Program-made: the position numbers and the translations under genes
The notes under the pieces: generated by a model
The model's database searches: none
What the model was told of the DNA's origin: nothing
The model's input: only the letters and a program-made list of their open reading frames with translations
Shown here: in pieces, positions 21,762 to 23,205 of the stretch
Numbering within the stretch: the first letter of the stretch is position 1
Layout of the letters: each line of letters opens with the position of its first letter
Origin: Promethearchaeota archaeon
GTDB taxonomy: Archaea > Asgardarchaeota > Lokiarchaeia > Sigyniarchaeales > SOKP01
Length of the DNA stretch: 44,078 nt
Direction: 5' to 3'
Assembly: GCA_029838195.1 (NCBI GenBank)
Contig: JALGVJ010000052.1
Coordinates: 1 to 44,078 of the forward strand

Positions 21762-22025
21762 ATGTTTATCTTAATTCTTTCAATTTTTCTCGTGCTATTA
21801 ATCCTTAAAATTAATTAGATGAATAATTAAAAGTTAGGTTTTTAAATTTAATTATCAAAAACAATTTAATTAAAGCTTAGACCTATATTTCTATATTTTC
21901 TAGAACACGTGAGAAAATAATAAAAAATGATGTATTTGAATGAATTTCTTTAATGGAAAAGATTTTATGCGTATTCCAATTATTACTTTATAAAAATATT
22001 TTCTGCGAGGAGATATAAAGAAAAA

Positions 22026-23205
22026 ATGTACTCAATATATCAATTAGGACAGCAACAGCAGACCGATCCTTTTGCTCTCATCTTGAACTTGCTGTTTTTC
22101 CTGTTAATCTTTACATCAATGTTTTACGGACAAATTGGGATGGTATAATCCCAATTCCATAAAAAGAATACAAGCATGGAAAGCAGCAAAGGAGATTGAG
22201 CAAGGATTAAACGATTTAGAAAAATGGAATGACGAATGCAAGCAAATTCTCCTAAATAATTTTAAGAAATTCGCTGATAAAAAGGAAACTGAAAAAGATT
22301 TAATGATAAAATTAGAAGATTTCATGACATTTGTCACTATCCCCCCTGTACAACTCGATCCTAATGGAATCATCCCTAAATTTGACCACATCCTTAATAT
22401 TAGAGATACCCGTTTCGAGGAAGAAGTTAAAGCGCTCGCCCCCATGGCGGATGACACGCAACAAAATAACATGGAAAATTTACTAGAAGCCGCCATGGCT
22501 GTGGATTATGTATATCGATTAGTCAAGCATTTCTTAATCCTGGGAAAAAAAACCAAGTCTATGATTTTATTGCTCCAACTGTCCATGCAAATGGGAATAA
22601 TCATGGCCATGGCCAAATCCTATTATAGGGCCGCTAAAGCCTTTTCTGAAGGAAGTCCTATTGGCGATGCTTTAGGTCCCATGGTAGCCGGAAGTTTTAT
22701 AAGAGAAATTGTTAAAGATGGGACTGTTGAGCCCAAAGAAGTCGAAAAAGATACGATAGTCCAAGAGGTTGCATTCGAAGATAGAACGATTTATGTCATT
22801 CGAGCAAAAGGTCCTGGAGGCACTGTGGGAAAACCGGGAAAAGCCATCAGAAAAATAATTGAAGAACAAGGGGATGCTATTTCTCGGATAATCATGATTG
22901 ACGCAGGGCTGAAGCTTAGCAGTGATAAAACAGGCTCCTTAGCAGTTGGAGTTGGTGCTGCGATTGGAGGCGTTGGCGTGGAGAAATTTTATATTGAAGA
23001 ATCCTCTACTCATGAGAAAATCCCCATTGATGCTCTGATATGCAAGCAATCGTTAGAAGATGCTATAACAACGATGAAAAGAGCGATAACGTTATCCGTA
23101 CCTAAGATAGTGGAAAAAATAAAGATGATCATTCGGAATAAAACCGATAAAGGGTCAAAAATTATTGTTGCTGGTATAGGAAACACTATTGGGATTGGAA
23201 CTTAG
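22026..23205 (+). CDS. DUF1512 family protein, interrupted by a ~31-nt frame-breaking insert near codon 36
   Basis: ATG 22026 (GAGGAG upstream) encodes MYSIYQ...LFFLLIFTSMFYGQ (TM helix) and the +1 frame continues RIQAWK.... The body has PVQLDPNGI, PIGDALGP, KGPGGTVG, IDAGLK and GIGNTIGI. Confidence 0.8.

What the first reader, a model, noticed from the sequence alone, without database searches (positions are those of the whole stretch)
22119..22173. Self-complementary ~31-nt insert splitting a DUF1512 gene: mRNA intron, recoding signal or mini-element
Seen: the frame from ATG 22026 reads ...MFYGQ, enters ATTGGGA-TGGTATAA-TCCCAAT-TCCATAAAA and stops at TAA 22146-48 in the hairpin loop. Removing 31 nt (e.g. 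22134-22164) gives ...MFYGQ-RIQAWK, matching the FYGQRIQ junction I recall for this family. Both halves are otherwise intact. The insert forms a 7-8 bp hairpin, and its tail TCCATAAAA pairs with upstream TTTTACGGA (one mismatch), leaving a 3-nt CAA bulge reminiscent of a bulge-helix-bulge. Established: BHB introns occur in crenarchaeal cbf5 mRNA and are cut by EndA. Limit: the canonical 4-bp register would excise 29 nt (out of frame); only a 3-bp GGA/UCC helix register (28 nt) or a 31-nt excision restores the frame. Alternatives are a +1 slip at GGG-A, a transposon footprint causing recent pseudogenisation, or an assembly artefact.
Basis: partly seen in the sequence, partly recalled or inferred. 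Interest (0 to 1): 0.8.

Follow-up and report, generated by a model that had tools for sequence, protein, structure and literature searches.

The report
tRNA-type mini-intron in Asgard DUF1512 gene
The only DUF1512 gene of this Asgard archaeon is interrupted by a 31-base hairpin insert that two related species keep under strong selection, so it is most likely cut out of the mRNA by the tRNA-splicing enzymes, which the papers I searched confirm for only one other archaeal protein gene (cbf5).

Summary
The DUF1512 frame from ATG 22026 stops at TAA 22146-48 inside a hairpin, and the rest of the gene continues in frame +1.

- **Exact excision.** Removing 31 nt (22132-22162, or three equivalent registers) gives FYGQ|RIQAWK, the uninterrupted junction seen in the relatives without the insert.
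- **Not an artefact or fresh pseudogene.** Two other species, from independent assemblies, carry the same insert at the same site. Both exons have dN/dS of 0.04-0.07 although synonymous sites are saturated.
- **The insert itself is constrained.** Its 23 non-loop bases differ at 0 and 2 positions. The 8-base loop differs at 3 and 4.
U22156 can pair with A22133 instead of A22130. A standard bulge-helix-bulge with standard cuts then removes exactly 31 nt.
- **Enzymes and company.** The genome encodes alpha- and beta-like EndA subunits and RtcB. I confirmed two similar inserts elsewhere in the genome, in pyrG and in a DeoC-family aldolase.
- **Caveats.** There are no RNA data. The central helix has one mismatch. 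The two-bulge fold is about 9 kcal/mol above the minimum-energy fold. There is no compensatory covariation.

This scan had already flagged similar inserts in other genes of this genome. Verdict: probable tRNA-type mRNA intron, about 0.7.

The parts
21987..22013 (+). Likely expression signals ahead of exon 1: the TATA-like TTTATAAAAATA (21987-21998) and GAGGAGA (22007-22013).
   Evidence: Read directly; not tested. No comparable signal precedes the TTG at 22135.
22026..22131 (+). Exon 1 of the DUF1512 gene. It encodes the N-terminal membrane helix and ends ...SMFYG + CA (first two bases of the Gln codon).
   Evidence: dN/dS is 0.07 against L002. P0003 residues 1-37 match it at 89% identity.
22132..22162 (+). 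The 31-nt insert, the proposed intron. Excisions starting at 22133, 22134 or 22135 give the same product.
   Evidence: Removal gives full-length protein in all three species. Non-loop bases differ at 0/23 and 2/23 positions against synonymous p-distances of 0.61 and 0.715.
22122..22125 (+). Outer helix h, 5' strand (UUUU, in exon 1). It pairs with 22164-22167.
   Evidence: paired in 12 of 12 cells. U.G becomes U-A in L003.
22126..22129 (+). Central helix H, 5' strand (ACGG, in exon 1). It pairs with 22157-22160. C22127 opposite A22159 is a mismatch.
   Evidence: 3 of 4 positions paired in all three sequences. The mismatch is C.A, C.A and C.U.
22130..22132 (+). 5' bulge ACA. The predicted cut lies between 22131 and 22132.
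   Evidence: Canonical rule (cut after the second bulge base) applied in my scan.
22133..22140 (+). Inner helix h', 5' arm (AAUUGGGA).
   Evidence: 8 bp, paired in 24 of 24 cells. One G-C becomes G.U in L003.
22141..22148 (+). Hairpin loop. It is variable between species and contains the frame-0 stop at 22146-22148 (TAA, TAA, TGA in the three species).
   Evidence: 3/8 and 4/8 positions differ.
22149..22156 (+). Inner helix h', 3' arm (UCCCAAUU).
22157..22160 (+). Central helix H, 3' strand (CCAU, in the intron).
22161..22163 (+). 3' bulge AAA. The predicted cut lies between 22162 and 22163.
   Evidence: The A-run also allows an unbulged pairing that is more stable in silico.
22164..22167 (+). 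Outer helix h, 3' strand (AAGA, in exon 2).
22163..23205 (+). Exon 2 of the DUF1512 gene (A + AGA ATA CAA ... to stop TAG 23203-23205), carrying both Pfam domains.
   Evidence: dN/dS is 0.04-0.065.

Best explanation
The 31 nt at 22132-22162 are a tRNA-type (bulge-helix-bulge) intron in the mRNA of the single DUF1512 gene.

The gene is transcribed as one unit from signals upstream of ATG 22026. The junction region folds into:
- an 8-bp inner hairpin (22133-40 / 22149-56);
- a 4-position central helix (ACGG 22126-29 / CCAU 22157-60, with one mismatch);
- two 3-nt bulges (ACA 22130-32 and AAA 22161-63);
- a short outer U/A helix.

The host's heteromeric splicing endonuclease (alpha-like subunit at C1:152152-152757, beta-like subunit at C8:28088-28684) cuts after the second base of each bulge. 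RtcB (C23:93378-94685) joins the exons. The result is ...GGA CA|A AGA..., which encodes FYGQ|RIQAWK, the family's normal junction. Unspliced mRNA would yield only a 40-residue membrane peptide ending at the stop in the loop.

Shown here: the insert, its exact in-frame removability, its conservation under selection in three species, the availability of the standard geometry, and the presence of the enzymes.

Inferred: that cutting and joining actually happen, and at these bonds.
For: 1. Removing exactly 31 nt restores a full-length protein in the window, L002 and L003. The restored junction equals that of every relative without the insert that I read: FYGQ[KR][IL]Q with no extra residues, in P0003, P0005, P0009 and 18 loci from other genera. 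The other 111 family genomes with the gene give a single unsplit match.

2. The gene is single-copy. It is found in 34 of 36 high-quality family genomes.

3. All insert carriers keep both exons under purifying selection. Nei-Gojobori dN/dS is 0.07 for exon 1 and 0.04-0.065 for exon 2, with synonymous p-distances of 0.61 and 0.715.

4. The insert itself is constrained in the way an RNA structure would be.
   - There are 0/23 and 2/23 differences outside the loop, against 3/8 and 4/8 in the loop. Fisher p = 6e-4. The binomial probability against the synonymous rate is about 4e-10 each.
   - Of the two non-loop changes, one keeps a pair (G-C to G.U in h') and the other sits at the already mismatched position. 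A further change just outside the insert, in exon 2, strengthens an outer-helix pair (U.G to U-A).

5. Synonymous codon identity peaks in the exon codons flanking the insert: 10/13 against 101/278 elsewhere, p = 0.006. This is expected if exon bases form part of the motif. Relatives without the insert vary freely at these same codons.

6. A scan coded with the standard rule (3-nt bulges, 4-position helix, cut after the second bulge base) picks this site with n = 31. Only 13 sites of equal quality exist in the genome.

7. The genome encodes a catalytic-type and a His-less EndA paralogue, plus RtcB. Published work assigns Asgard archaea the (alpha-beta)2 EndA with the L1 loop, which accepts relaxed motifs (PMC5829648).

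8. Other genes in this genome carry similar inserts. pyrG is split by 31 nt. A DeoC/LacD aldolase is split by a 30-nt insert with a perfect motif, giving ...AVDHG|YFGN.
Against: - There is no transcript, circular-intron or peptide evidence.
- The central helix has an unpaired C.A (C.U in L003) in all three species.
- ViennaRNA puts the two-bulge fold at -5.9 kcal/mol, against -14.9 for a single-bulge fold in which the U-run pairs with the A-run without a 3' bulge. From that fold the same rule would remove 29 nt, out of frame.
- With three sequences there is no compensatory (two-sided) covariation.
- My genome-wide test (motif plus joining of open frames) showed no excess over controls with shifted cut sites. 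I therefore could not show independently that there is a large population of such introns.
Confidence: 0.7

Rival explanations
1. Split gene. The membrane-helix peptide (22026-22148, 40 aa) and the soluble part (from TTG 22135, 356 aa) are translated separately and may associate. The conserved hairpin would serve translational coupling or regulation.
For: - Gene callers annotate exactly this 356-aa product in all three assemblies.
- The TTG and a frame-0 stop are present in all three.
- Purifying selection on both parts is also expected under this model.
Against: - All other family genomes encode one continuous protein.
- The TTG is conserved as part of the stem, so its conservation is not independent evidence.
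- No ribosome-binding or promoter-like sequence is evident in front of it.
- The first nine residues of ORF-B change non-conservatively: GWYNPNSIK, GYCNPNSIK, GQHDLNSLK. Meanwhile the nucleotides that form the stem stay fixed.
- The model does not explain why the standard cut rule removes exactly the insert.
Confidence: 0.12
2. Translational recoding. This would be either a programmed +1 frameshift near AUU GGG A, adding ten residues, or a ribosome hop over the 31 nt as in T4 gene 60 or yeast mitochondrial byp elements. The hairpin and in-loop stop would act as stimulators.
For: A hairpin with an in-frame stop soon after the shift site occurs in all three species. Hopping elements are also short hairpin inserts.
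Against: - The codon after GGG is AUG, AUA or ACA, so no conserved slow codon is present.
- The codons before the stop differ (GUA, CUG, GCA) and cannot re-pair in +1.
- The ten residues a frameshift would add are absent from all orthologs and evolve non-conservatively.
- For a hop yielding FYGQ|R, the take-off codon CAA and the landing codon AAA do not match.
- A-run slippage cannot help, because the frame-0 stop lies upstream of the A-run.
Confidence: 0.07
3. Dead or dying gene. The insert is a neutral insertion footprint that inactivated DUF1512 in the ancestor of this genus.
For: The frame is broken, and annotation treats the N-terminus as lost.
Against: dN/dS is 0.04-0.07 in both exons across lineages whose synonymous sites are saturated. 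There are no further disruptions in three species. The insert stem is far more conserved than neutral sites.
Confidence: 0.03
4. Assembly or sequencing artefact.
For: These are metagenome-assembled genomes. G000 has 7.9% estimated contamination.
Against: Three independent assemblies (the window; GCA_054386595.1; GCA_964388035.1) carry diverged versions of the same 31-nt insert at the same codon.
Confidence: 0.01

Closest known systems
cbf5 pre-mRNA intron of Crenarchaeota (Desulfurococcales, Sulfolobales; PMC2738675)
   Same: A short insert (16-44 bp there, 31 nt here) in a protein-coding gene, with a bulge-helix-bulge or relaxed motif partly built from exon sequence. The host has a heteromeric endonuclease of broad specificity. 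Presence is lineage-restricted, with relatives lacking it precisely.
   Different: Different gene (DUF1512, not cbf5) and different phylum (Asgard/Promethearchaeota). Splicing of cbf5 was shown experimentally; here it is inferred. Several cbf5 introns keep the frame, whereas this one shifts it by +1.
Archaeal pre-tRNA and pre-rRNA bulge-helix-bulge introns cut by EndA and joined by RtcB
   Same: The same predicted geometry and cut rule, and a size within the tRNA-intron range (11-175 nt, PMC2738675). Asgard tRNA genes are reported to be heavily interrupted (bioRxiv 10.64898/2026.10.13.758758).
   Different: The substrate is an mRNA with no tRNA body. The central helix has a mismatch, and the two-bulge fold is not the minimum-energy fold.
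HAC1/XBP1 unconventional mRNA splicing in eukaryotes (from my own knowledge, not checked here)
   Same: A very short, frame-changing intron is removed from a mature mRNA by an endonuclease. The exons are joined by the tRNA ligase (RtcB in animals), without a spliceosome.
   Different: The cutter there is IRE1, which recognises paired stem-loops rather than a bulge-helix-bulge. That splicing is a regulated stress switch; no regulation is shown here.
Translational bypass elements (T4 gene 60; byp inserts of Magnusiomyces mitochondria; from my own knowledge)
   Same: Short hairpin-forming inserts inside coding sequence that contain a stop codon and must be skipped for the protein to be made.
   Different: Those need matching take-off and landing codons, which are absent here. 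They act at the ribosome, not on the RNA.

Membership tests
Archaeal bulge-helix-bulge (tRNA-type) intron | [quoted passage not shown] | tested here: inconclusive
   The geometry is available in all three species: ACA and AAA bulges, an 8-bp inner helix and a 4-bp outer helix. However, the central helix has 3 of 4 pairs, and the fold lies 9 kcal/mol above the minimum-energy fold. It fits a relaxed motif (central helix, one bulge, inner helix) without difficulty.
Archaeal bulge-helix-bulge (tRNA-type) intron | Cuts after the second base of each bulge give a precise, functional exon junction | tested here: met
   The rule removes 22132-22162 (31 nt). The product FYGQ|RIQAWK equals the junction of the orthologs without the insert, in all three species.
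Archaeal bulge-helix-bulge (tRNA-type) intron | The host encodes the splicing endonuclease and the RtcB ligase | tested here: met
   PF01974 hits lie at C1 (Y/H/K-bearing, 202 aa) and C8 (His-less, 199 aa), plus a fragment on C53. PF01139 RtcB lies at C23.
Archaeal bulge-helix-bulge (tRNA-type) intron | Helices maintained in relatives while loop sequence drifts | tested here: met
   Non-loop positions differ at 0/23 and 2/23; loop positions differ at 3/8 and 4/8. Of the three changes outside the loop (one just beyond the insert, in exon 2), two keep or strengthen a pair and one is at the mismatch. There are no compensatory double changes among the three sequences.
Archaeal bulge-helix-bulge (tRNA-type) intron | Spliced RNA and/or excised (circular) intron observed | not testable with these tools
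   No transcriptome or read data are available.
cbf5 mRNA intron family | The intron lies in the cbf5 pseudouridine synthase gene of Crenarchaeota | tested here: not met
   The gene carries PF07431 and PF23542 (DUF1512). Sources name its closest homologs as Promethearchaeota, Hodarchaeota and Hermodarchaeota. It works like the cbf5 intron but is not a member.
Programmed +1 ribosomal frameshift | Conserved slippery codon followed by a slow or stop codon; the shifted product is conserved | tested here: not met
   The codon following GGG varies (AUG, AUA, ACA). The ten added residues are absent in orthologs and vary non-conservatively.
Translational bypass (gene 60 / byp type) | Matching take-off and landing codons flanking the gap | tested here: not met
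   The required pair would be CAA (22131-33) and AAA (22162-64), which do not match.
Multi-copy mini-element (MITE-like) | Further copies in the genome or in other genomes | tested here: not met
   There is no other copy with up to 3 mismatches in the genome, and none by blastn-short. Collection scans found only the L003 contig plus chance hits.

The most novel reading that the evidence does not exclude
The insert may be one visible member of a genome-wide layer of mRNA splicing by the tRNA-splicing machinery in Asgard archaea. It may also act as a switch. Unspliced message ends at the stop kept in the hairpin loop and yields only a 40-residue membrane peptide. Full-length DUF1512 would appear only when EndA and RtcB act, which would make this an archaeal counterpart of HAC1/XBP1-type unconventional splicing.
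Probability: 0.12. Interest if true: 0.9.

Novelty: new member of a known kind. Interest (0 to 1): 0.7.

Why it matters
In the papers I could search, splicing of an archaeal protein-coding message by the tRNA endonuclease is confirmed for a single gene, cbf5, in Crenarchaeota (PMC2738675). The recent census of Asgard introns covers tRNA genes only (bioRxiv 10.64898/2026.10.13.758758).

- **Evolutionary interest.** A selected, frame-breaking mini-intron in an ordinary membrane-protein gene of an Asgard archaeon would show that the closest prokaryotic relatives of eukaryotes depend on RNA cutting and rejoining to express some proteins.
- **Practical consequence.** Gene callers truncate such genes; here 356 aa are called instead of 382. 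Asgard proteomes are therefore systematically mis-annotated at these sites.
- **A good test substrate.** The motif is close to canonical and the host enzymes are identified, so a direct in vitro test is feasible.

Tried and rejected
- **Genome-wide motif scan plus open-frame joining test.** It gave 1161 hits, against 1231-1255 in four controls with shifted 3' cuts. Stricter structural filters gave no excess either. The test is swamped by adjacent same-strand genes. C8:18943 turned out to be two neighbouring thiolase-like genes, and C22:39909 low-complexity sequence. It therefore gives no count of introns.
- **Search for more copies.** Pattern scans of 185,579 species genomes and of the JGI metagenome contigs returned only the known L003 contig plus unrelated chance hits. 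The family scan found the split only in the two species of genus g1.
- **Order of gain and loss.** P0003, which lacks the insert, groups with the insert-bearing P0004 (support 95/81). The AU test does not reject a clade of the three carriers (p = 0.157). Loss against later gain stays open.
- **Rfam.** No family matches 21900-22400 at E up to 1.
- **ARAGORN tRNA introns as a host-specific reference for the motif.** The intron calls were too unreliable to use.
- **28-nt excision.** It needs a register that breaks the hairpin, and it would add a residue that no ortholog has.
- **Transcriptional slippage at the A-run.** Impossible, because the frame-0 stop lies upstream of the run.

Full report
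**What is there**

The window is contig C70 of a 4.5-Mb, 33% G+C genome that is 96.6% complete. Sources name the closest DUF1512 homologs as Promethearchaeota, Hodarchaeota and Hermodarchaeota, that is, Asgard archaea.

From ATG 22026 a frame reads MYSIYQLGQQQQTDPFALILNLLFFLLIFTSMFYGQIGMV and stops at TAA 22146-48. A frame shifted by +1 is open from 22135 to 23205. It carries PF07431 from profile position 20 onward, plus PF23542. It is also unique in the genome.

**Orthologs**

A protein search returned thousands of DUF1512 proteins. Full-length ones are 379-385 aa and read ...FYGQ(K/R)(I/L)Q.WK without interruption.

Two relatives were instead called as 356-aa proteins starting inside an insert: P0002 (91% identity) and P0004 (81%). 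Their contigs are L002 (GCA_054386595.1) and L003 (GCA_964388035.1). Both carry a 31-nt insert at exactly the same codon.

In a scan of 135 species genomes of the family:
- 113 have the gene;
- only G000 and G018 are split, and these are the two species of genus g1 (G018 is the L003 contig);
- the other 111 give single, unsplit matches.

The 18 junction sequences I read from other genera show no extra residues.

**Selection**

Removing 22132-22162 and the homologous 31 nt gives full-length proteins in all three species. Nei-Gojobori estimates:

| Comparison | Value |
|---|---|
| dN/dS, exon 1 | 0.07 |
| dN/dS, exon 2 | 0.04-0.065 |
| Synonymous p-distance, window vs L002 | 0.61 |
| Synonymous p-distance, window vs L003 | 0.715 |

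Neutral sites are therefore saturated, yet the gene has stayed functional in every lineage that carries the insert. A pseudogene is excluded.

The insert itself is constrained:
- The 23 non-loop bases differ at 0 positions (L002) and 2 positions (L003).
- The 8 loop bases differ at 3 and 4 positions.
- Fisher p is 6e-4. The binomial probability against the synonymous rate is about 4e-10 for each comparison.

Of the two non-loop changes, one turns a G-C into a G.U in the inner helix, and the other sits at the already mismatched position. A change just outside the insert, in exon 2, turns a U.G into a U-A in the outer helix.

Synonymous codon identity among the three species is 10/13 in the codons flanking the insert, against 101/278 elsewhere (p = 0.006). 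Relatives without the insert vary freely at these same codons. This is what one expects if exon bases form part of an RNA motif.

**Geometry**

That holds only if U22156 pairs with A22130. It can equally pair with A22133, giving the 8-bp hairpin that RNAfold itself draws. The motif then becomes:

| Element | Coordinates |
|---|---|
| Outer helix | UUUU 22122-25 / AAGA 22164-67 |
| Central helix | ACGG 22126-29 / CCAU 22157-60 |
| 5' bulge | ACA 22130-32 |
| 3' bulge | AAA 22161-63 |
| Inner helix | 22133-40 / 22149-56 |

Cutting after the second base of each bulge removes 22132-22162, which is 31 nt, and joins ...GGA CA to A AGA.... I coded this rule blind to the gene and ran it over the genome. 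It returns this site with n = 31. Only 13 sites of equal quality with n = 31 exist among 9.03 million strand positions.

Caveats:
- The second pair of the central helix is C.A (C.U in L003).
- ViennaRNA rates the two-bulge fold at -5.9 kcal/mol, against -14.9 for the single-bulge fold in which the U-run pairs with the A-run without a bulge.
- Three sequences give no compensatory covariation.

The motif fits the relaxed class (central helix, bulge, inner helix) comfortably. Published work says the heteromeric endonucleases of TACK and Asgard archaea, which carry the L1 loop, accept that class (PMC5829648; PMC2738675).

**Machinery and company**

The genome encodes a 202-aa EndA paralogue with the Y/H/K catalytic residues (C1). 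It also encodes a 199-aa paralogue lacking the His (C8), a fragment (C53), and one RtcB (C23).

I confirmed two other interrupted genes myself:
- pyrG on C56 is split by 31 nt between ...DQDFG and KHERFLG, with a relaxed motif.
- A DeoC/LacD-family aldolase on C90 is split by a 30-nt insert with a perfect motif: CATG/CATG central helix, a 10-bp hairpin, and the product ...AVDHG|YFGN.

Earlier notes of this scan list similar inserts in elp3, pyrG, rpl11, an E2 gene and others of this genome. I used them as leads only.

My attempt at an unbiased count failed. Joining of open frames at motif hits was no more frequent than with shifted cuts, because adjacent genes dominate the hits.

**Rivals**

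- **Split gene (0.12).** It explains the selection on both parts, but not the stem-versus-loop pattern, the lack of start signals before 22135, or the exact fit of the cut rule.
- **Recoding (0.07).** It lacks a conserved slippery or slow codon, would add ten unconserved residues, and has no matching take-off and landing codons.
- **Pseudogene (0.03) and artefact (0.01).** Both are contradicted by the data.

**History**

P0003 (85% identity, no insert) groups with the insert-bearing P0004 (support 95/81). A clade of the three carriers is not rejected (AU p = 0.157). A single gain is clear; a later precise loss is possible but unproven. No further copies were found in the two large collections.

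**Literature**

Seven searches found no report of mRNA introns of this type in Asgard archaea.
- PMC2738675 states that splicing was confirmed for no archaeal pre-mRNA other than cbf5.
- The October 2026 preprint on Asgard introns deals with tRNA genes only.
- The library is incomplete, so absence is not proof of novelty.

**Verdict**

This is a probable tRNA-type intron in the DUF1512 mRNA (0.7). It is a new member of the kind represented by the cbf5 intron, in a new gene and a new phylum, and it awaits RNA evidence.

Noticed in passing
G000 contig C56:72389-72493 (locus L038/L039): The single pyrG (CTP synthase) gene is split into two frames by a 31-nt insert between ...DQDFG and KHERFLG. 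GGTA is repeated at both borders. Only a relaxed motif is present: a 4-bp central helix with two G.U pairs, and no inner helix adjacent to it.
   Followed up: partly
G000 contig C90:21989-22018, minus strand (locus L051): A DeoC/LacD-family aldolase gene carries a 30-nt insert with a textbook bulge-helix-bulge (CATG/CATG central helix, 10-bp hairpin) and an in-frame stop. Removal gives ...MLAVDHG|YFGNIPG.
   Followed up: partly
whole genome G000: ARAGORN finds only 16 tRNA genes in a genome that is 96.6% complete, and half of them are called with introns. This suggests that many tRNA genes are too interrupted to be detected.
   Followed up: no
G000 contig C53:22036-22353, minus strand (locus L036): A 106-aa open frame is a near-duplicate of the middle of the beta-like EndA subunit on C8. 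It could be a truncated paralogue, a pseudogene, or sequence from a contaminating strain.
   Followed up: no
window 22146-22148 and homologous positions in L002 and L003: A frame-0 stop (TAA, TAA, TGA) is kept at the same loop position in all three species, although the rest of the loop drifts. This could be chance, or selection for early termination of unspliced message.
   Followed up: no
window 22165-22190: The first eight codons of exon 2 after the junction (ATA CAA GCA TGG AAA GCA GCA AA) are identical at every synonymous site in three species with saturated dS. This reaches beyond the bases needed for the outer helix, and no structure was identified for it.
   Followed up: partly
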